Shown here: positions 16,067-34,706 of the stretch, in pieces
Layout: every line of letters begins with the position of its first letter
Numbering within the stretch: position 1 is the stretch's first letter
Source of the DNA: a virus
Virus record (IMG/VR): IMGVR_UViG_3300045988_127420
DNA length: 37,829 nucleotides
Strand: one strand, 5' to 3'
Notes under the pieces: model-generated
Told to the model about the DNA's origin: nothing
Seen by the model: the letters and a program-made list of their open reading frames with translations, nothing else
The model's database searches: none
Position numbers and translations under genes: made by a program

Positions 16067-17281
16067 ATGGCAGACAGCGAAGTGAAGTACCCCATCATCA
16101 CCGACGACACGGGCCGCGCCATCGCGGGCGCGCTGCAGGCGCTGGCGCACGGCAAGGTGGCCGAGCTGAAGACCGACTGGGACGGGCTGGCGCGCATGAG
16201 CCGCGACGGCCTGGCGCCCTACGTGCTCGGCATCGGCGACCAGATCACTTCCAAGTGGACCGACCCGGACGGCGGCACCGCCTACGACGTGGCCAACGAC
16301 GTGTGCCACTTCCCCGCCGAGCTGGAGCTGCAGGACGGCGAGAAGCTGCCCGGCACCATCCTGCAGTGGCACTACACCCTGCCCTTCGGCACGCAGTTCG
16401 ACCAGAAGGAGGCCTTCTGGTACTGCGAGGCCGCGCTGACGGCCGGCACCTACAACCTGACCATGGGCGCCTCGTGGGGCACCAACGTGGTCAAGGGCAA
16501 GACCTACCAGTTCACGCTCGCCAAGGACGTGCCGAAGGGCGGCGTGCTGGCCGGCATGGAGTACGCGCCGGACCGCGACCCGGGCACGTGGCAGGTCAAG
16601 TCCTACAAGACCGTGAGCGACGCCGACCCCATCGAGACGGTGGGCATGAGCGAGGGCGCGCAGGGCACGAGCCTGGGCACCATCGGCACCAAGCCGGACG
16701 GCAACATGAACAGCATCTACCGCTGCGCCTACGGCTACAACCGCTGGAGCCAGTCCGCGCTGCGCCAGTACCTCAACGGCAAGGGCACGAACTGGTGGAA
16801 GCCGCAGAACAAGTGGGACCGCCCGCCGGAGTACGTCGGCAAGCACGGCTTCCTGGACGGCATCCCCGAGGCCGAGCTGGCCGTCATGCGCCGCGTGAAG
16901 GTCGTCACCGGCGTGCCCTACTGCGAGGAGGGCACCGACAGCGAGCCGGTGCTGGACACCACCTACGACCTCGTGTTCCTGCCGAGCATGGAGGAGCACT
17001 TCCTGGAGCTCGGCGAGTCCGGCATGAAGGGCAAGGAGGGCGAGGCGTGGGAGTACTGGGCGCGCGTCGCGCAGTCCCCGACGCCGCTGGCGCTGTGGCA
17101 GACGTGGCCGCAGCTGATCACGTACGCCATCAACGGCAAGACCAGCCCGCAGTACGTCTGGGCGCGTTCCGCTAATCGCGGCAACGGCAACTACACGTTC
17201 GTCGTGTACGCGTCGGGCGGCGTCGACGGCTACTACGGCGCGCAGTACGCGCTGCGCTGTGCTCCCGCCCGCGCCATCTAG
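16067..17281 (+). CDS. Receptor-binding tail protein; DGR target with C-terminal variable region (C-type-lectin/FGE-like fold inferred)
   Basis: 404 aa, the last tail gene. C-terminus ...YVWARSANRGNGNYTFVVYASGGVDGYYGAQYALRCAPARAI is repeated at nucleotide level 622 nt downstream, between avd and the RT. Confidence 0.8.
   Translation: MADSEVKYPIITDDTGRAIAGALQALAHGKVAELKTDWDGLARMSRDGLAPYVLGIGDQITSKWTDPDGGTAYDVANDVCHFPAELELQDGEKLPGTILQWHYTLPFGTQFDQKEAFWYCEAALTAGTYNLTMGASWGTNVVKGKTYQFTLAKDVPKGGVLAGMEYAPDRDPGTWQVKSYKTVSDADPIETVGMSEGAQGTSLGTIGTKPDGNMNSIYRCAYGYNRWSQSALRQYLNGKGTNWWKPQNKWDRPPEYVGKHGFLDGIPEAELAVMRRVKVVTGVPYCEEGTDSEPVLDTTYDLVFLPSMEEHFLELGESGMKGKEGEAWEYWARVAQSPTPLALWQTWPQLITYAINGKTSPQYVWARSANRGNGNYTFVVYASGGVDGYYGAQYALRCAPARAI
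17150..17275 (+). repeat. DGR variable repeat (VR)
   Basis: Hand alignment to 17772-17894. Differences cluster in codon positions 1-2 of N/Y/G/D/S/C codons. The 3' end is a GC-only tract (CCCGCCCGCGCC). Confidence 0.75.
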
Positions 17282-17297
17282 CCATCGATGCCAATCC

Positions 17298-17319
17298 GGG
17301 GCGGGCCACCGCCCGCCCC
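17298..17319 (+). promoter_or_regulatory. GC hairpin downstream of VR (candidate DGR target-recognition hairpin, possibly also a terminator)
   Basis: GGGGCGGGC-CACC-GCCCGCCCC: perfect 9-bp stem with a 4-nt loop, 16 nt after the stop codon. No T-tract follows. Confidence 0.6.
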
Positions 17320-17340
17320 CTGTTCGAAAAGGAGGCCGCT

Positions 17341-17751
17341 TTGTCGGTACCTAAAAGGTTGAGGAAGAAAAGCAAGCTCGAAGTGTTCGTGAACGCCTGC
17401 GACCTCGTGGAGTACGTGCTGAAGATCACGGCGAACGAGAAGGTGTTCAAGCCGGAGCAGTCCGCCGTCACGGACAAGATAAAGGCGGCGGCGCTCGACA
17501 TAGCGCGCTTCATATGGTGTGCCAACAGCATCCGCGTGCGCCAGGACGCGCAGCTGTACGCCGAGCGGCGCCGCCTGCAGGACATGGCCATGACGTGCTG
17601 CCGCGAGCTGCTTTTCCTCATCGACCTCGCATGGGACGTCATGCACCTGTCTGAGCGCCGAGCCGTCTACTGGGTCGGCAAGACAATGGACCTGCGAGAC
17701 GAGATAGCCGCATGGAGGGCATCCGACGCCAAGAGATACGGGCGTCTGTGA
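17341..17751 (+). CDS. avd: DGR accessory variability determinant (Avd-like four-helix-bundle protein)
   Basis: 136-aa basic, helical protein. TTG start 5 nt after AAAAGGAGG. Sits between the VR-bearing gene and TR/RT, as in the canonical cassette. Confidence 0.7.
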   Translation: MSVPKRLRKKSKLEVFVNACDLVEYVLKITANEKVFKPEQSAVTDKIKAAALDIARFIWCANSIRVRQDAQLYAERRRLQDMAMTCCRELLFLIDLAWDVMHLSERRAVYWVGKTMDLRDEIAAWRASDAKRYGRL

Positions 17752-17771
17752 TAGCCGGGGCCGCGGCTGTA

Positions 17772-17894
17772 CAGCGCGTCTGGACGCGGTCCGCTTATCG
17801 CTACTGCGGCTCCTGCACGTTCATCGTGTACGCGTCGGGCTACGTCAGCGGCTACAACGCGCAGTACGCGCTGCGCTGTGCTCCCGACCGAACC
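17772..17894 (+). repeat. DGR template repeat by position (TR); sequence is atypical, see findings
   Basis: 123 nt homologous to the VR, starting 21 nt after the avd stop and about 135 nt before the RT. The 3' end has A where the VR has C/C/G (GACCGAACC vs GCCCGCGCC). Confidence 0.65.
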
Positions 17895-18029
17895 GGCGAA
17901 AGCCCCACCGAAGCCTGCGGCGCAGCCGCGGAGCGGGGCGAAACCGGCGCGGGGAGCCGCGACCCCGAGCCCGAGAGGGCCGAACAACGCCGGGGCGACG
18001 CCGACGCGGCTGGAACGCGGGCGGCTATC

Positions 18030-19100
18030 GTGCGCCCCGGACCCACACCCGAACTGGAACCCGGCGAGCTGAACGGCGTCGTCGGGTTCTACGCCTTGAG
18101 GGAGAGCGCGAAGAAGTGCAGGCGCGGCGTCATATGGAAGGGCAGCGCCGCCAGCTACATGCTGAACCTGTCAGAGCGCACGCTGGCCATGAGCCGCAAG
18201 CTGCAGGCGGGCACGTTCAGGTGCGGGCCCACGCGGGAGTTCTACGTGACGAGGCCCAAGCGCCGCACCATCGTGAGCGTGGGCTTCGCCGACCGCGTGT
18301 TCCAGCGCAGCCTCAACGACAACAGCATCTACCCCCGCATGGTGCGCGGCTTCATATCGGACAACGCGGCATGCCGGAAGGGCAAGGGCACCGACTACGC
18401 CCGCGAGCGCCTGAAGGAGTTCATGCGCCGCCACTACCGCAAGAACGGGCCGAACGGCTGGGTATGCCAGATGGACGTGGCGGGCTACTACCCGAACATG
18501 CGGCACGAGACGGCCGAAGCGGCATTCGCCCGCAAGCTGCCGCCCGAGATCATGGCCATGGCCAGGGCGGTCATGCGGAACCAGTACCCGGGCGAGGTCG
18601 GCTACAACCCGGGCAGCCAGATGATACAGATAGCCGGCATCAGCGTGCTGGACCCGCTCGACCATATGGCGAAAGACCGCATGGGCATCAGGAACTACGT
18701 CAGGTACATGGACGACGCCGTGGCCATCTTAGCCACCCGCGAGGAGGCCGAGCGCGCCCTGGAAGCGTTCGGCGACACCCTGCATAACCTGGGTTTCGAG
18801 CTGAACCCCAAGAAGTCGTGCATCTACCCGCTGCGGGACGGCGTGCCGTTCCTGGGCTTCGACTTCCACCTGACCGACACGGGCAAGGTCCTCATGTTCG
18901 TGAAGCCGTCGAACGTCAAGGAGATGAGGCGGCGCATAGCGAAGATGGCGAGGCTGAGCCGCAAGGGGCGCATCATGCGCGCTGAAGTGGACGAGAGCTA
19001 CCGAGCATGGCGCAACCACGCGGGCAAGGGCGACAGCTTCAGGCTCATCAGGCGCTGCGACGCCTGGTACAAGGAACTATGGAAGGAGCACCGATGCTAG
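18030..19100 (+). CDS. DGR-type reverse transcriptase
   Basis: Motifs seen: RRTIVSVGFADRVFQ, NPGSQMIQ (DGR-typical SQ motif) and YVRYMDDAV (YxDD). The N-terminus aligns conceptually with Bordetella bRT (FYALRESAKKCRR...LQAGTFRCGPTREFYV). Start is uncertain: GTG 18030, CTG 18069 or ATG 18159. Confidence 0.88.
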   Translation: MRPGPTPELEPGELNGVVGFYALRESAKKCRRGVIWKGSAASYMLNLSERTLAMSRKLQAGTFRCGPTREFYVTRPKRRTIVSVGFADRVFQRSLNDNSIYPRMVRGFISDNAACRKGKGTDYARERLKEFMRRHYRKNGPNGWVCQMDVAGYYPNMRHETAEAAFARKLPPEIMAMARAVMRNQYPGEVGYNPGSQMIQIAGISVLDPLDHMAKDRMGIRNYVRYMDDAVAILATREEAERALEAFGDTLHNLGFELNPKKSCIYPLRDGVPFLGFDFHLTDTGKVLMFVKPSNVKEMRRRIAKMARLSRKGRIMRAEVDESYRAWRNHAGKGDSFRLIRRCDAWYKELWKEHRC

Positions 19101-25458: not shown

Positions 25459-26769
25459 ATGGAACTGAAGCGAGTCAAGACCGCCGACGTGTACCCGAGC
25501 GAGGGCAACCCGCGCGAGGACATGGGCGACCTGGAGGCGCTGGCCGCCAGCTTCGAGCTGAACCCGAAGAGCCCGGGCGAGCCGCTGAACCCGCCGCTGC
25601 TCGTGCGCGACGGCGGCGTGTACCGCATCGTGGACGGCGAGCGCCGCTGGCGCGCCATGGGCATCGCGGGCACCAAGGAGTTCGACGCGGTGGTGTGCGA
25701 GGACTGGGCCGACGCGGACGCCGCGCTGGCGATGCTGGCCACCGACGACAAGAAGCCGCTCGACGAGGTGGAGCGCAGCCGCGGCGTGCAGCGCGCCCTG
25801 CTGCTGGGCGTGGAGCCGCAGAAGGTCGAGAAGGCCGCCCGCCGCAAGGGGCTGCGCAAGGTCAAGAAGGCCGCCGAGCGCCTGGGCGGCGAGGCCGAGC
25901 TGATGAGCATCGACCACCTGCTGGCCGTGGCCGAGCTGGCCGACGACCACCCCGAGCTGTCCGACGAGGTGGCCAACGCCGACGAGGGCGCGTGGGAGCG
26001 CGTTTACAGGGAGGCCAGGGCGCAGGTCGAGCGCGAGCGCGCCGCCCAAGCCCTGCGAGACAAGGCCGCCGAGCTGCGCCTTGGCCTGGAGGAGCGCGGC
26101 GACCGCCCCGACCGCCCCGAGGGCATGTGCTACGCGCTGACGTGCCGCACGCCCGAAGACCTGGAGGCCGCGGCCGAGGAATACGCCGGCGGGGCGCTGT
26201 ACGCGCTGCTCGTGAGCAAGTACGACGGCGCGCGCGTGGTGGTCTACACCGCCCTGCCCGACGACGCCGTGGACCCTTCGCGCGAGGCCGCCAAGGAGCG
26301 CAGGGACGCCATGGCCGCCCGCATCGAGGACATGCTGCACAGCGTGCGCGCGTTCCTCGTGCCGAGCCTGATGCGCCCCCTCGACTGCCGCGAGGCTCGC
26401 GAGTGCATGGAGGAGGCCGTGAAGTCATGGCTCGGCGACCGCGAGTCCAAGTGGGACAACGGCGGCAAGGCGGCGTGCTGGCTCGACGAGGCCGAATGGG
26501 GAGGCGCCCGCCCCGACGGAGCGGCCAGCGGCATGGTTGCCGCCTGCATCGCCCGCGACTGGCTGGCCGGCGCCGAGCCGAACCGCACGGTGCTGGGCAT
26601 GGCGTGCGGCCTGGACGAGATGAGCGACTACGGGCGCGACCAGCTGACGCACTTCCTGGACGCCATGGGCGCCGCGGCGGGCGACGGCTGGGAGCCGAGC
26701 AGGGAGGACATGGCGCTGATGGCCGAGCTGTCGGCGGCGTGCAAGGAAGACGAGAGCGAGGAGCTGTAA
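25459..26769 (+). CDS. ParB-like nuclease-domain protein
   Basis: N-terminus ...NPRED...LAASF......PLLVRDGGVYRIVDGERRWRA matches the ParB/Srx domain pattern. 436 aa. Confidence 0.7.
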   Translation: MELKRVKTADVYPSEGNPREDMGDLEALAASFELNPKSPGEPLNPPLLVRDGGVYRIVDGERRWRAMGIAGTKEFDAVVCEDWADADAALAMLATDDKKPLDEVERSRGVQRALLLGVEPQKVEKAARRKGLRKVKKAAERLGGEAELMSIDHLLAVAELADDHPELSDEVANADEGAWERVYREARAQVERERAAQALRDKAAELRLGLEERGDRPDRPEGMCYALTCRTPEDLEAAAEEYAGGALYALLVSKYDGARVVVYTALPDDAVDPSREAAKERRDAMAARIEDMLHSVRAFLVPSLMRPLDCREARECMEEAVKSWLGDRESKWDNGGKAACWLDEAEWGGARPDGAASGMVAACIARDWLAGAEPNRTVLGMACGLDEMSDYGRDQLTHFLDAMGAAAGDGWEPSREDMALMAELSAACKEDESEEL

Positions 26770-28181
26770 TGGTGAAGATCGCATCGGTGGAGGCCGAGAA
26801 CGTCAAGCGCGTGAAGGCCGTGTACCTGGAGCCGAAGGCCGACGGGCTGACGGTCATAGGCGGCCGAAACGGCCAGGGCAAGACGAGCGTGCTGGACGCC
26901 ATCGCGTGGGCGCTCGGCGGCGACAAGATGCGCCCGAGCAACGCCAAGCGCGAGGACGCCGCCGGCGACCCGCAGCTGCGCGTGGTGCTGGACAACGGCA
27001 TCGTGGTGGAGCGCAAGGGCAAGAACAGCTCGCTGAAGGTCATCGACCCGAGCGGCAACAAGGGCGGCCAGCAGCTGCTGAACTCGTTCACCGAGCAGCT
27101 GGCCCTGAACCTGCCCAAGTTCATGCAGGCCAGCGACAGGGAGAAGGCCGAGACGCTGCTGTCCATCATGGGCGTCGGCGAGGAGCTGGCGGCCCTGGAC
27201 GCGCAGAAGCAGGCGGCCTACAACCAGCGCCTGGCCGTGGGCCAGATGGAGCGCCAGAAGCGGGGCGCGGCCAACGACATGCGGCACTGGCCGGACGCGC
27301 CGGCGCAGGAGGTGAGCGCGTCCGAGCTCATCGCCGAGCAGTCGGCCATCCTGGCGCGCAACGGCGAGAACCAGCGCAAGCGCATGGAGGCCCAGCAAGT
27401 CAAGGCGCGCCTGGACGCGGCCATGGGAGAGCTGGCGCGCATGAACGAGCAGAGCGCCGAGCTGGCGCGCCGCATGGCCGAGAAGTCGGCGGAGGTGGAG
27501 CGGCTGAGCGCCGACGCGGCCACCGCCGCCAAGACCGCCGAGCAGCTGCGCGACGAGTCCACCGCCGAGCTGGAGGAGCAGCTGCGCCAGGTCGAGGCCG
27601 TCAACGACAAGGTGCGCACCAACATGCGCCGCGCCGCCGCGATGGCCGAGGCCGACGAGCTGAAGGCTCAGTACGACGAGCTGGATGAGCGCGTGCGCGG
27701 CCTGCAGAAGGCCCGCACCGACCTGCTGCGCGGAGCGAAGCTGCCGCTGGAGGGGCTGACCGTGGAGTTCGACGCCAAGGGCGAGCCGCGCCTGGAGTAC
27801 CAGGGACAGCCGTGGGACTGCATGAGCGGCAGCGAGCAGCTGAAGGCGGCCACGGCCATCGTGCGCGAGCTGAAGCCGGAGTGCGGCTTCGTGCTGGTGG
27901 ACAAGCTTGAGCAGATGGACCCGCAGACGCTGGCCGAGTTCGGGCAGTGGGCCGAGGGCGAGGGCCTGCAGGTCATCGGCACCCGCGTGGGCACCGGCGG
28001 CGAGTGCAGCCTGGTCATCGAGGACGGGCGCGGGCAGCTGGGCGACCCCGAGGGAGACGAGGAGCGCATGGTGGCCGAAAGCCTCCGCGAGTGCGCGGCG
28101 GACAGCGGCTGCCCGGAGTGCACCATCCCGCACGACGGGGCGTGCGCGCCCGCGGCGGCGAAGGGCTGGGTGATTCAGTAA
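26769..28181 (+). CDS. SMC/SbcC/RecF-like AAA ATPase with central coiled coil
   Basis: Walker A GGRNGQGKTSVLDAI. Long coiled-coil middle. C-terminal LSGSEQ-like signature (MSGSEQLK) and a Walker B-like VLVDKLE. Confidence 0.65.
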   Translation: MVKIASVEAENVKRVKAVYLEPKADGLTVIGGRNGQGKTSVLDAIAWALGGDKMRPSNAKREDAAGDPQLRVVLDNGIVVERKGKNSSLKVIDPSGNKGGQQLLNSFTEQLALNLPKFMQASDREKAETLLSIMGVGEELAALDAQKQAAYNQRLAVGQMERQKRGAANDMRHWPDAPAQEVSASELIAEQSAILARNGENQRKRMEAQQVKARLDAAMGELARMNEQSAELARRMAEKSAEVERLSADAATAAKTAEQLRDESTAELEEQLRQVEAVNDKVRTNMRRAAAMAEADELKAQYDELDERVRGLQKARTDLLRGAKLPLEGLTVEFDAKGEPRLEYQGQPWDCMSGSEQLKAATAIVRELKPECGFVLVDKLEQMDPQTLAEFGQWAEGEGLQVIGTRVGTGGECSLVIEDGRGQLGDPEGDEERMVAESLRECAADSGCPECTIPHDGACAPAAAKGWVIQ

Positions 28182-29242
28182 TGGCCATCCAGATAACGCG
28201 AGGGGCCGCGCAGAAGCCCCAGAAAGTCGTGATCTATGGCGTCGAGGGCATCGGCAAGACGACGCTGGCCGCGCAGTTCCCCAACCCCCTGTTCGTCGAC
28301 ACCGAGGGCGGCACCGAGGGATACGACGTGGCCCGAACGCAGACCCCGCAGAGCTGGACGGCGCTCAAGGGCCTGCTGCGCGACGTGGCGGCGGAGCGCC
28401 CGTGCGGCACGCTGGTGCTCGACACCGCCGACTGGGCCGAGCGCCTGCTGTGCGCCGAGCTGTGCGCGCAGCACAAGTGGGACTCCATGGAGACGCTGGG
28501 CTTCGGCAAGTGCTGGCAGTTCGCACTGGAGGAGTTCGGCCGCATGCTCGACCTGCTCACCGACGTGCGCGACGCGGGCATGAACGTCGTGGTCACGGCG
28601 CACGCCATGGTCTCCAAGTTCGAGCAGCCCGACGAGGCCGCGAGCTACGACCGCTGGACCATGAAGATGTACAAGAAGGACGCCGCGCTGCTCAAGGAAT
28701 GGGCCGACGCGCTGCTGTTCGTCAACTACAAGACCATCGTGGAGATGGTCGGCGAGGGCTTCATGGCCAAGGGCAAGGCGCGCGGCGCCAAGCGCACGAT
28801 CTTCTGCACGCACCAGGCCACGTGGGACGCGAAGAACCGCTGGGGACTTCCCGACGAGGTGCCGCTGGGCTACGAGGCCATAGCGCCGCACGTGCCGAGC
28901 CTCGGGACCGACCCGCGCGTGCCCGCCCCCGCCCCGCAGGCGCGGCCCATGCCGCAGCCCCAAGCCAAGCCCGCCCCGCAGGCGCAGGGCGACGCGCCTG
29001 GGACCATCGCCGCGAAGAAGGGGCTGCCCGCGTTCTGGGCACCCGCCTGCGAGCTGATGGAGCGAGACGGCGTGAGCCTGGCCGAGGTGCTGAACTTCGC
29101 GGTGCTGCAGGGCCACTTCACGCCCGACACGCCGCCCGAGGCGTACCCGCCCGACTACATCGCCGGGCTGATCGTGCCGCAGTGGGAGACGGTGAAGGCC
29201 AAGGTGGCCGAGTACCGCGGCGGCGAGGACATCCCCTTCTAA
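28181..29242 (+). CDS. AAA_24 / Sak4-like recombination ATPase
   Basis: KVVIYGVEGIGKTTLAAQFPNPLFVDTEGG. Followed by a DUF669-like gene, which is the usual pairing. Confidence 0.65.
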   Translation: MAIQITRGAAQKPQKVVIYGVEGIGKTTLAAQFPNPLFVDTEGGTEGYDVARTQTPQSWTALKGLLRDVAAERPCGTLVLDTADWAERLLCAELCAQHKWDSMETLGFGKCWQFALEEFGRMLDLLTDVRDAGMNVVVTAHAMVSKFEQPDEAASYDRWTMKMYKKDAALLKEWADALLFVNYKTIVEMVGEGFMAKGKARGAKRTIFCTHQATWDAKNRWGLPDEVPLGYEAIAPHVPSLGTDPRVPAPAPQARPMPQPQAKPAPQAQGDAPGTIAAKKGLPAFWAPACELMERDGVSLAEVLNFAVLQGHFTPDTPPEAYPPDYIAGLIVPQWETVKAKVAEYRGGEDIPF

Positions 29243-34181: not shown

Positions 34182-34706
34182 ATGGGAATCATCTGCGAGG
34201 CCTGCGGGCGCGACATCGACGCCCTGGGGCAGGACAACATGGGAGTGGACGCGCCGCTGTGCGAGGACTGCTGGAACGAGCGGCAGGGCCGCGCGGCGGA
34301 GTCGCTGCGCCGCGAGGTTCGCGACCTGAGGTTCGAGAACGCCCGCCTGCGCGAGAAGCTGGACGCCAAGGTCGAAGACGCGGTGGACCCCACATGGGTC
34401 TGCAGGATGCGCAACACGGCCGTGCAGAACCTGCGCAAGGACATCGAGGCGGCCTACAAGGTGAGCCGCGAGCGAGCCCTGGCGCTCACGAAGCTGGACG
34501 AGTGCGAGATGTGGCTCGGGCGCTGCGAGCCCAAGGAGACGGCGGCGCCGACGCTCGAGGGCGCGGCCCAGGACGCCGCCATGCCGTGCCTGAAGGACGC
34601 GCACGTGGAGCTGAACGTGGAGCTGAGGCCCGATGCGCTCGCCGATGCGGCGGCGAAAAGCCTGCGCGAGTCCATGCAGCCGGCCCTGCGGATGGCGGTG
34701 AGGTAG
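34182..34706 (+). CDS. Hypothetical zinc-ribbon / coiled-coil protein
   Basis: 174 aa. CEACG...CEDC at the N-terminus. RBS GAAGGAGAA upstream. Confidence 0.5.
   Translation: MGIICEACGRDIDALGQDNMGVDAPLCEDCWNERQGRAAESLRREVRDLRFENARLREKLDAKVEDAVDPTWVCRMRNTAVQNLRKDIEAAYKVSRERALALTKLDECEMWLGRCEPKETAAPTLEGAAQDAAMPCLKDAHVELNVELRPDALADAAAKSLRESMQPALRMAVR

What the first reader, a model, noticed from the sequence alone, without database searches (positions are those of the whole stretch)
16067..19100. Complete diversity-generating retroelement (DGR) cassette aimed at the phage receptor-binding tail protein
All canonical DGR parts occur in the canonical order:
- the last tail gene (16067-17281) ends in a 126-nt segment (17150-17275)
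- that segment is repeated 622 nt downstream (17772-17894)
- a basic helical 136-aa Avd-like ORF (17341-17751) lies between the two copies
- a reverse transcriptase follows, carrying DRVFQ, GSQ and YMDD motifs

By analogy with Bordetella phage BPP-1 Mtd, this implies programmed hypervariation of host-receptor specificity. It is the one non-standard information-processing system in an otherwise ordinary siphovirus.
Basis: partly seen in the sequence, partly recalled or inferred. Interest (0 to 1): 0.8.

Follow-up and report, generated by a model that had tools for sequence, protein, structure and literature searches.

The report
Phage DGR with a self-mutated template
This is a genuine diversity-generating retroelement in a temperate Collinsella gut phage, but its supposedly invariant template copy has itself lost half its adenines to DGR-type mutagenesis, which the standard model of these elements says should not happen in nature.

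Summary
It is a DGR.

The defining test fails in this genome. Only 9 of the 21 VR/TR mismatches sit at template adenines. Eight have the adenine in the VR and four have none. In 18 relatives, 306 of 316 mismatches are at template adenines.

About 35 related Collinsella-phage cassettes carry a conserved AAC-rich template. Against it, the window's template has 18 of 35 adenines substituted, 1 of 88 other bases, and one further adenine in the TR-specific 5' flank. A 99.2%-identical relative from the same cohort (L063) still has the pristine template. It differs at 20 positions in the 125-nt tract and at 19 in the other 7.5 kb (P≈3e-29). Two assembly pipelines reproduce the sequence.

The VR and TR are therefore independent mutagenised descendants of one ancestral template. 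I think one mis-targeted homing of the element's own cDNA into the TR is most likely (about 0.55). Copying of a VR allele into the TR is the main rival. Diversification capacity falls from about 10^19 to about 10^8 protein variants.

The parts
16067..17281 (+). DGR target gene (404 aa, DUF6273). It is the last gene of the tail/baseplate module and the presumed receptor-binding protein.
   Evidence: ORF. Pfam DUF6273 at residues 221-392. 1357 homologues, all DUF6273, in clusters with hundreds to thousands of members. The model matches phage DUF6273 proteins (E 1.6e-27) and weakly a tail-collar fibre protein. It follows the tape measure, tail and BppU_N genes. DUF6273 is a published DGR target domain (PMC11792537).
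17150..17275 (+). Variable repeat (VR), 42 codons. It is an adenine-only derivative of the ancestral AAC-rich template, with one extra codon in the AAC run.
   Evidence: All differences from the canonical family template lie at template adenines. It keeps AAT, AAC and AAC where the present TR has TAT, TGC and TCC.
17261..17275 (+). IMH-like G+C-only 3' end of the VR (GCTCCCGCCCGCGCC), invariant in all relatives' VRs
   Evidence: It differs from the TR's 3' end only at the three TR adenines.
17298..17319 (+). GC-rich hairpin/cruciform 3' of the VR (9-bp stem, 4-nt loop CACC), 22 nt after the end of VR/TR homology
   Evidence: Folding. Conserved in relatives, with a compensatory pair change in L009 and the loop flipped in L006. 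This kind of element is required for target recognition in BPP-1 (PMC3240598).
17341..17751 (+). avd, the accessory variability determinant (136 aa, TTG start)
   Evidence: phrog_3206 'Avd protein of DGR', E 2.8e-13, residues 2-134. Third-codon-position bias confirms it is coding. No Pfam, NCBIfam or PDB sequence hit.
17772..17894 (+). Template repeat (TR) locus, now occupied by an adenine-mutagenised copy. It keeps the TR-type flanks and the IMH*-like 3' end (GCTCCCGACCGAACC, 17880-17894).
17770..17865 (+). Mutated tract within and 2 nt upstream of the TR: 19 A-to-N changes and one T-to-G, relative to the template of the closest relatives
   Evidence: Against L063 there are 20 differences here versus 0.32 expected (P=3e-29).
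17895..18095 (+). Non-coding TR-RT spacer, presumably the 3' part of the DGR RNA. Its central part is nearly invariant.
   Evidence: No codon-position bias. Predicted GC-rich helices with 7 compensatory pairs, but a weak covariation term. No Rfam family.
18096..19100 (+). DGR reverse transcriptase (334 aa from TTG 18096; gene callers extend it to ATG 17712)
   Evidence: RVT_1. phrog_1423, 254 bits. Best solved relative 8ub7_A, E 6.6e-18. The coding signature starts at about 18096. L002's ORF starts at the equivalent TTG.

Best explanation
This is a real BPP-1-type DGR in a temperate siphovirus of Collinsella. In the family, RT-Avd copies the TR RNA into cDNA, miscopying about half of the template adenines. 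The cDNA then replaces the VR at the C-terminus of a DUF6273 tail protein, guided by the GC-only IMH and the downstream hairpin. This step is shown by relatives' TR/VR pairs. In this particular genome the template itself has been hit. The sequence in the TR position, still between TR-type flanks, carries A-to-N changes at 18 of 35 template adenines plus one adenine 2 nt upstream of the repeat. The VR is a separate A-to-N derivative of the ancestral template. This step is also shown. I infer that one mis-targeted retrohoming event put the element's own mutagenised cDNA back into the TR locus. The cDNA is fully homologous to that locus. The insertion was possibly IMH-independent and helped by the phage's own Sak4-like single-strand annealing protein, as happens in engineered DGR-recombineering systems. 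The cassette is probably still active (RT and Avd are intact) but now holds a degraded template: 13 rather than 19 variable codons, about 10^8.4 rather than 10^18.9 protein variants. The next homing event would overwrite the present VR with sequence it was not derived from.
For: DGR identity. Eighteen relatives show 306 of 316 mismatches at TR adenines and none with A only in the VR. The hairpin is conserved with a compensatory change. Template mutagenesis: the window's pair has 9, 8 and 4 mismatches with A in the TR, A in the VR, or A in neither (Fisher p=4e-11 against relatives). About 35 family templates are AAC-rich and conserved. The window's TR against the canonical one has 18 of 35 A changed versus 1 of 88 non-A (p=4e-11). 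Changes private to the window are 17 in the TR, 1 in its flank and 3 in the other ~1700 nt. L063, 99.2% identical and from another BioSample of the same cohort, has a pristine TR; there are 20 differences in the tract against 19 in 7498 nt elsewhere (P=3e-29). The sequence is real: identical VR and TR in an ENA k141 contig and a Logan contig. The two copies share exact words of only 29 and 17 nt, and the mutated codon 2 abuts the TR-specific flank, so a k-mer graph cannot have built this as a chimera. One event suffices: 51% of adenines changed, against about 48% per homing in relatives and about 50% for bRT (PMC7826257). Own cDNA rather than a VR donor: 17770 A>T lies where every VR has C. 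The template has two TGC (Cys) codons in 13, whereas real VRs have 1 in 228 codons and 2 in 702 residues, and none of 54 VRs has two (p=6e-4 to 1.5e-3). First-position A>T is 9 of 13 against 65 of 228 (p=0.004). There is no excess of shared derived states between the window's own VR and TR. Plausibility: the phage encodes a Sak4-like annealing protein. With an annealing protein, the dgrRNA locus overwrites itself and the target at similar rates without needing an IMH (bioRxiv 10.1101/2025.03.24.644984; 10.64898/2026.07.21.739853).
Against: No reads were available, so I cannot show that the mutated template is the majority allele in the sample. The two assemblies may rest on the same reads. The TR keeps its IMH*-type 3' end, so the event was not licensed by an IMH conversion. 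The role of the annealing protein is pure inference, and relatives with intact templates presumably encode the same protein. The peptide encoded by the mutated TR scores like a typical functional VR under site-specific VR frequencies (rank 20 of 54). Only 0.5-6% of simulated unselected products score as well, depending on the null, which leans towards a selected VR as donor. The flank argument rests on a single nucleotide. L008's template shares an identical 25-nt patch with its own VR, so short VR-to-TR conversion may occur in this family. The RT signature motif is only partly conserved (PGSQMIQ).
Confidence: 0.6

Rival explanations
1. Canonical, intact DGR: copy B (17772-17894) is the pristine template, and the VR was made from it by adenine mutagenesis.
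For: All parts are present in the canonical order. Nine mismatches do fall at TR adenines, including the three in the IMH/IMH* region.
Against: Twelve of 21 mismatches are not at TR adenines. Eight have A in the VR opposite T, G or C in the TR, a type never seen in 316 mismatches of 18 relatives. A published survey of 372 DGRs found at most 11 non-A-to-N differences in one target (PMC5758913). The relatives' templates show what the pristine sequence is.
Confidence: 0.02
2. VR-to-TR transfer: homologous recombination or gene conversion copied a diversified VR allele into the TR locus, between the shared ends of the repeat. The donor was this phage's earlier VR or the VR of a co-infecting relative. 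The present VR differs because the donor was foreign, or because the target-gene end was later exchanged.
For: The mutated template's peptide looks like a functional VR (rank 20 of 54 real VRs; 0.5-6% of simulated unselected products reach it). L008's TR and VR share an identical 25-nt patch with three A-site changes. Engineered systems also saw RT-independent TR/VR recombination. Three differences from L063 cluster just 5' of the VR (17122, 17146, 17149), which hints at recombination around the target-gene end.
Against: Codon 2 is changed only 3 nt from the edge of TR/VR homology. Position 17770, 2 nt outside it, is T where all 20 or more VRs have C, so a crossover would have had to occur within 'CAG' and be followed by an extra point mutation. 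Two Cys codons are essentially unseen in real VRs (p about 1e-3), and the template shows an excess of first-position A>T (p=0.004). The window's own VR shows no special kinship with the template. No matching VR allele was found among about 80 VRs.
Confidence: 0.25
3. Assembly or sampling artefact: the contig stitches VR-variant reads, or free cDNA molecules, between TR flanks, and the real genome has a canonical template.
For: Hypervariable repeats are hard to assemble. All contigs that carry the mutated template come from one cohort, possibly from one sample's reads.
Against: Two different pipelines give base-identical sequence over VR and TR. The window's own VR is not the inserted sequence. 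The substituted positions start 2 nt inside TR-specific sequence, and the longest exact words shared by the two loci are 29 and 17 nt, too short to bridge at k=141. Errors would not be adenine-specific.
Confidence: 0.05
4. Ordinary decay: the DGR is dead and its template is drifting by normal point mutation, or adenines were lost stepwise under selection in a stable environment.
For: The lineage does show DGR loss: L002 has deleted avd and the TR. Theory predicts loss of template adenines when the environment is stable (bioRxiv 10.64898/2026.02.18.706561).
Against: Twenty changes in 125 nt against 0.25% divergence elsewhere (P=3e-29), with 19 of the 20 at adenines. Across relatives, template polymorphism is not adenine-biased (12 of 36 against 26 of 87 columns), so normal template evolution does not look like this. 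The RT is 100% identical to L008's, and Avd has a single conservative change.
Confidence: 0.05

Closest known systems
Bordetella phage BPP-1 DGR (mtd-avd-TR-brt)
   Same: Same gene order. The VR is at the 3' end of a tail receptor-binding gene. A G+C-only IMH in the VR faces an adenine-interrupted IMH* in the TR. A GC hairpin with a 4-nt loop lies 3' of the VR. The accessory protein is Avd. The RT's closest solved relative is bRT-like (8ub7), with R74 and Q187 equivalents kept. About 50% of adenines are miscopied per event.
   Different: The target is DUF6273, not an Mtd-like protein with a demonstrated C-type lectin fold. The hairpin loop is CACC, not GRNA. The RT motif is PGxxxIQ, not IGxxxSQ. 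The host is an actinobacterial gut anaerobe. In this genome the TR is itself mutagenised, which in BPP-1 I recall only from an engineered IMH*-to-IMH swap (my recollection of Guo et al. 2008, not checked here).
DGRs of Faecalibacterium prophages with DUF6273 targets (PMC11792537)
   Same: Gut temperate phages with the VR mapping to the C-terminus of a DUF6273 domain.
   Different: Different host phylum. That paper does not describe a mutagenised template.
Engineered DGR-recombineering systems (DGRec, bioRxiv 10.1101/2025.03.24.644984; HGT-DGR, 10.64898/2026.07.21.739853)
   Same: The template locus is overwritten by its own adenine-mutagenised cDNA ('TR self-mutagenesis'), independently of an IMH, when a single-strand annealing protein integrates the cDNA. 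The annealing protein used there, CspRecT, comes from Collinsella. The window's phage has its own Sak4-like annealing protein.
   Different: Those are artificial plasmid systems in E. coli with mismatch repair suppressed, and their authors contrast the behaviour with natural DGRs. Here it is a natural phage genome, a single fixed event, with no demonstrated role for the annealing protein.
DGRs with 'non-A-to-N' TR/VR differences in genome surveys (Wu et al. 2018, PMC5758913)
   Same: The TR/VR pair has many mismatches that are not at TR adenines. 23% of 372 surveyed DGRs have at least one.
   Different: The survey attributes such differences to RT misincorporation or integration errors, and its maximum is 11 per target. 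Here there are 12, and comparison with relatives shows that they arise from adenine mutagenesis of the template side.

Membership tests
Diversity-generating retroelement (DGR) | The reverse transcriptase belongs to the DGR clade rather than to group II intron, retron, Abi or DRT RTs | tested here: met
   The best solved relative is 8ub7_A, a 328-aa RT with R74, I181 and Q187 as published for bRT (E 6.6e-18). Group II maturases score 2e-7 and retron-type RTs 4e-6. TIGR04416 scores 75.6 bits against a cut-off of 300. PADLOC RT, DRT and retron models reach at most 82 bits. phrog_1423 scores 254 bits.
Diversity-generating retroelement (DGR) | Signature RT motif [I/V/L]GxxxSQ (QGxxxSP in other RTs) | tested here: inconclusive
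   The aligned segment is P-G-S-Q-M-I-Q. G and the terminal Q are kept, and the terminal residue is not the P of QGxxxSP. The first residue is P and S is replaced by I. The family nevertheless performs adenine-specific mutagenesis.
Diversity-generating retroelement (DGR) | A TR/VR repeat pair next to the RT, with the VR at the 3' end of a protein-coding gene | tested here: met
   17150-17275 and 17772-17894, the only two copies in the window.
Diversity-generating retroelement (DGR) | TR/VR differences confined to template adenines | tested here: not met
   In the window, 9 of 21 mismatches are at TR adenines, 8 have A only in the VR, and 4 have A in neither. The feature is met in 18 relatives (306 of 316). 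It is also met for each of the window's two copies when compared with the ancestral template. The failure is explained by mutagenesis of the template, not by a different mechanism.
Diversity-generating retroelement (DGR) | Accessory variability determinant (Avd) next to the TR | tested here: met
   phrog_3206 'Avd protein of DGR', E 2.8e-13, covering residues 2-134. No Pfam, NCBIfam or PDB sequence hit.
Diversity-generating retroelement (DGR) | IMH at the VR 3' end distinct from IMH* in the TR, plus a GC-rich hairpin/cruciform 4-34 bp 3' of the VR | tested here: met
   GCTCCCGCCCGCGCC in the VR against GCTCCCGACCGAACC in the TR, in all family members. A 9-bp stem with a 4-nt loop lies at 17298-17319, conserved, with a compensatory change in L009. 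The loop is CACC, not the GRNA consensus (PMC3240598).
Diversity-generating retroelement (DGR) | Ongoing diversification of the VR (heterogeneity among genomes or reads) | tested here: inconclusive
   At family level every relative has a different VR over a conserved TR. For this genome the VR is identical in 6 contigs, and no reads could be examined.
C-type lectin / FGE-like DGR variable proteins (Mtd, TvpA type) | The VR is displayed on a C-type lectin or FGE-sulfatase fold | tested here: inconclusive
   Pfam finds only DUF6273 in all 28 aligned homologues. The AF2 model has pLDDT 79 overall but below 50 over the VR. Foldseek against the PDB gives nothing at E<0.26. The profile against PDB hits only an IgA protease domain, 9qa6, at 1.6e-5.
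DUF6273 phage DGR targets | DUF6273 domain with the VR at its C-terminal end, in a phage structural module | tested here: met
   PF19789 at residues 221-392 of 404, with the VR at residues 362-403. It lies downstream of BppU_N and the tape measure gene. Published precedent: PMC11792537.

The most novel reading that the evidence does not exclude
A natural DGR has retrohomed into its own template. One burst of adenine mutagenesis rewrote the TR of a circulating gut phage, probably through IMH-independent annealing of the cDNA to its fully homologous source locus. That would mean TR-to-VR directionality is leaky in nature, templates can evolve by saltation rather than only by ordinary point mutation, and part of the 'non-A-to-N' mismatches catalogued in DGR surveys are template-side events.
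Probability: 0.55. Interest if true: 0.75.

Novelty: new member of a known kind. Interest (0 to 1): 0.6.

Why it matters
The cassette itself is one more gut-phage DGR with an already documented target domain, so on its own it is ordinary. Its state is what matters. The accepted model, and current theory, hold that the template is invariant and evolves only by ordinary mutation, with directionality enforced by IMH/IMH* and the target hairpin. Template self-mutagenesis is known only as a nuisance of engineered DGR-recombineering systems. Here there is a natural before-and-after pair from one human cohort, 99.2% identical, in which the template has lost half its adenines in what looks like a single event. 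If confirmed at read level, this has four consequences. It gives a natural rate-limiting failure mode and a fast route to DGR decay or template resetting. It warns that DGR finders relying on adenine bias will miss such cassettes. It offers a different reading of non-A-to-N mismatches in surveys. And it points to Collinsella prophages that are cultivable in isolates (C. aerofaciens TM115-146, Collinsella sp. CLA-ER-H10) as a system in which leakiness of directionality, and a role for phage annealing proteins, can be measured.

Tried and rejected
1. I looked for a third, pristine copy of the repeat in the window. There is none.

2. I tested whether templates in this family generally accumulate adenine-site changes. 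They do not: 12 of 36 A columns are polymorphic against 26 of 87 non-A columns. The window's state is a discrete event.

3. I tested whether the window's VR and mutated TR share history. They share 5-7 of 18 derived states, against 3-9 (mean 5.3) for unrelated VRs, so there is no excess.

4. A likelihood test of the template's peptide against real VRs at first looked decisive for a VR donor: 0.5-0.8% of simulated raw products reached its score. With a codon-position-specific null this weakened to 6%, and the Cys-codon and A>T-spectrum tests contradict it. I report it as unresolved.

5. Target fold. Foldseek against the PDB, a profile search against PDB sequences and a lenient Pfam scan gave no C-type lectin, FGE or DUF1566 link.

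6. Avd by Pfam, NCBIfam and PDB sequence search: no hit. Only PHROGs recognises it.

7. No GenBank phage record resembles the region, and there is no Rfam family in it.

8. A scan of IMG/VR with the TR-specific 5' flank found no further templates.

9. Is the 462-aa ORF that runs through the TR a real N-terminal extension of the RT? I rejected this because there is no codon-position bias upstream of about 18096.

10. Literature searches for natural adenine-specific template mutagenesis found none. The 'TR variants' of Treponema DGRs are lineage variants. The library does not cover subscription journals, so absence is not proven.


Full report
OBSERVATION. The ORF at 16067-17281 (404 aa) ends in a 126-nt segment, 17150-17275. 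That segment recurs at 17772-17894 as 123 nt, with one 3-nt indel and a start-to-start spacing of 622. Two conserved sub-stretches of the repeat occur exactly twice in the window and in none of 100 shuffles. Between the copies lies a 136-aa ORF (17341-17751) with a TTG start preceded by AAGGAGG. After the second copy comes a reverse transcriptase that ends at 19100.

IDENTITY OF THE PARTS. The RT has an RVT_1 domain. Its closest solved relative is chain 8ub7_A, at E 6.6e-18. That chain is 328 aa and carries R74, I181 and Q187, the residues published for the Bordetella phage bRT (PMC7826257). Group II intron and retron-type RTs score ten or more orders of magnitude worse. The group II equivalog model scores 75.6 bits against a cut-off of 300, and defence-system RT models reach at most 82 bits. 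The signature motif [I/V/L]GxxxSQ is only partly kept, as PGSQMIQ.

The 136-aa protein matches phrog_3206, 'Avd protein of DGR' (E 2.8e-13, full length). Pfam, NCBIfam and PDB sequence searches do not recognise it.

The target protein carries DUF6273. It has 1357 homologues, all with that domain, in unusually populous 90%-identity clusters. It lies after the tape measure, tail and BppU-type baseplate genes and before the lysis genes and a serine integrase. DUF6273 is already documented as a DGR target domain with the VR at its C-terminus (PMC11792537). A C-type lectin or FGE fold could not be shown. The AlphaFold model is confident except over the VR, and it matches only other phage DUF6273 proteins.

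A 9-bp GC stem with a 4-nt loop sits at 17298-17319, 22 nt beyond the VR. It is conserved in relatives, with a compensatory change in L009. This fits the target-recognition hairpin defined for BPP-1 (PMC3240598), although the loop is CACC rather than GRNA. The VR ends in a G+C-only IMH-like stretch, which three adenines interrupt in the TR. The TR-RT spacer shows no coding signature and is predicted to be structured, with weak covariation.

The host is Collinsella: six genome loci, including C. aerofaciens TM115-146 and Collinsella sp. CLA-ER-H10.

THE ANOMALY. Read in frame, the two copies differ at 21 positions, 19 of them at codon positions 1 and 2. Only 9 have the adenine in the intergenic copy. 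Eight have the adenine in the tail-gene copy (AAT, AAC and AAC opposite TAT, TGC and TCC), and 4 have none. From this I predicted that both copies descend from a hidden AAC-rich template.

Relatives confirm the prediction. Ten IMG/VR loci, six Collinsella genome loci, eight metagenome loci and 13 further members of the ORF cluster that spans the template carry an almost invariant template: CAG AAC GTC TGG ACG CGT TCC GCT AAT CGC AAC AAC GGC AAC AAC ACG TTC ATC GTG AAC .... Their own VRs differ from it at template adenines in 306 of 316 cases, and never with an adenine only in the VR. So the family obeys the DGR rule strictly, and the window does not (Fisher p=4e-11).

WHAT HAPPENED TO THE TEMPLATE. 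Against the canonical template of its clade, the window's copy B has 18 of 35 adenines replaced (T 9, G 7, C 2) and 1 of 88 other bases (p=4e-11). It keeps the TR-type flanks and the IMH*-type 3' end. Counting only substitutions private to the window against its four closest relatives gives 17 in the TR, one at an adenine 2 nt upstream of the repeat (17770), and three in the remaining ~1700 nt of avd, spacer and RT.

The closest relative, L063, comes from another BioSample of the same cohort and is 99.2% identical over 7.7 kb. It has a pristine template and a different VR. It differs from the window at 19 positions in 7498 nt outside the repeats and at 20 positions (19 of them adenines) in the 125-nt template tract (P=3e-29).

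The window's VR is an adenine-only derivative of the canonical template with one extra codon in the AAC run. It cannot derive from the present template.

The mutated template is not an assembler artefact. An ENA k141 contig and a Logan contig are base-identical to the window across both repeats. The substituted positions begin inside TR-specific sequence, and the two loci share exact words of only 29 and 17 nt. It is also not ordinary decay. Template polymorphism among relatives is not adenine-biased, and the flanking genes are essentially unchanged.

MECHANISM. Two steps are shown. The family's RT-Avd performs adenine-specific mutagenic homing into the VR, and the window's template carries that same signature.

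The rest is inferred. The fraction of adenines changed (51%) equals that of a single homing event in relatives (about 48%) and the roughly 50% misincorporation of bRT. So one event suffices.

Two routes are possible. In route (a), the element's own cDNA, which is homologous to the TR locus along its whole length, replaced the template. In route (b), a diversified VR allele was copied into the TR by recombination.

Four observations favour (a).
- 17770 A>T lies where all VRs have C, and codon 2 is changed only 3 nt from the homology edge.
- The template has two TGC (Cys) codons in 13 AAY codons. Real VRs have 1 in 228 codons and 2 in 702 residues, and none of 54 VRs has two (p=6e-4 to 1.5e-3).
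- The template has an excess of first-position A>T (9 of 13 against 65 of 228, p=0.004). Both this and the Cys codons are expected for an unselected product.
- There is no special kinship between the window's VR and TR.

Two observations favour (b).
- The encoded peptide scores like an average functional VR, and only 0.5-6% of simulated raw products do as well, depending on the null.
- L008's template shares an identical 25-nt patch with its own VR.

I put (a) at about 0.55 and (b) at about 0.25.

Route (a) has a direct engineered precedent. When DGR cDNA is integrated by a single-strand annealing protein, the template locus overwrites itself at rates similar to the target and needs no IMH. 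This phage encodes a Sak4-like annealing protein at 27947-29242. That link is circumstantial.

CONSEQUENCE. RT and Avd look intact, so the element is probably still active. The template now offers 13 rather than 19 variable codons, about 10^8.4 rather than 10^18.9 protein variants. The identical VR in six contigs gives no sign of homing since the event. The lineage also contains a fully disabled cassette: L002 has lost avd and the TR.

NOVELTY. As a DGR it is a new member of a known kind. I found no description of natural adenine-specific mutagenesis of a template. Surveys attribute non-A-to-N mismatches to RT or integration errors, with at most 11 per target. Theory assumes templates evolve by standard mutation. 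Engineering papers contrast template self-mutagenesis with natural systems. The literature library is incomplete, and my recollection of the IMH*-to-IMH swap experiment of Guo et al. 2008 was not checked.

VERDICT. The cassette is a real DGR with a self-mutated template. Confidence is about 0.95 that it is a DGR, about 0.85 that the template mutagenesis is biological, and about 0.55 that the route was own cDNA. Interest is 0.6.

Noticed in passing
L002:3855-3929 (corresponds to window ~17306 joined to ~17925): A relative with a 98%-identical RT has deleted avd and the TR completely. The left breakpoint is at the loop of the VR-proximal hairpin (CCGGGGCGGG|GCGAAACCGG) and the right one is in the TR-RT spacer, with GGGGCG microhomology. 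This fits the hairpin/cruciform being a site of DNA breakage.
   Followed up: partly
L006:3224-3298 (equivalent to window 17298-17319): The 4-nt loop of the target hairpin is flipped to its reverse complement (GGTG instead of CACC) while both stem arms are unchanged. This is the signature of an inversion across a cruciform.
   Followed up: no
L008:3713-3835 and L008:3092-3214: The window's sister phage (RT 100% identical) has three A-site changes in its template (AAT CGC AAC AAC to AGT CGC TAC TAC). They sit inside a 25-nt stretch identical to its own VR. This is either a small template-mutagenesis event later copied to the VR, or a short-patch VR-to-TR conversion. Its VR also carries a 5' segment (GTG TTC CTG) of another lineage's type.
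   Followed up: partly
protein P0134 (member of the 462-aa ORF cluster): Another close relative's template peptide has two adenine-site changes (AQN to AQT, and APD to APA). The second converts one of the three IMH* adenines to the IMH base.
   Followed up: no
window 17225-17239; L037:1587-1712: The window's VR has five codons where the template's AAC run has four. L037's template has five AAC while its VR has four. These are in-frame slippage on the AAC run, in both directions.
   Followed up: partly
window 17712-18095: Gene callers extend the RT ORF to ATG 17712 (462 aa), reading through the TR in the VR's frame. The frame is open in all 15 relatives examined, yet it shows no third-position bias upstream of about 18096. 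It is probably a by-product of 69% G+C and of the TR mirroring a coding sequence. It is useful, because protein clusters of this ORF record template states.
   Followed up: yes
relatives' VRs (L001-L053, P0001-P0214): At AAY-derived codons of real VRs the joint outcomes are far from independent: TGC (Cys) 1 observed against 18.8 expected, GAC 8 against 23.3, GGC 30 against 11.3, TAC 59 against 38.8. The cause is either strong selection on the binding surface or correlated misincorporation by the RT.
   Followed up: partly
window 27947-29242, 25459-26769, 34182-34706: The phage encodes a Sak4-like ssDNA-annealing protein (phrog_124, 1e-55) and a ParB-like nuclease/partition protein. A 174-aa protein has a sub-threshold match to the Acb2/Tad1 hairpin domain (23.8 bits against a cut-off of 27), so it is a possible anti-defence sponge.
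   Followed up: no
clusters of P0001, P0006, P0010, P0124: Names attached to near-identical proteins point to several Coriobacteriia besides Collinsella: Senegalimassilia, Parolsenella, Eggerthella lenta and Coriobacteriaceae CHKCI002. The 90% cluster of the target protein also contains 136-aa Avd sequences, which looks like a clustering artefact.
   Followed up: no
window 18579-18599 (RT motif): The residue equivalent to bRT I181, a published promoter of adenine mutagenesis, is proline, and the S of 'SQ' is isoleucine. Yet the family still miscopies about 48% of template adenines per event.
   Followed up: partly
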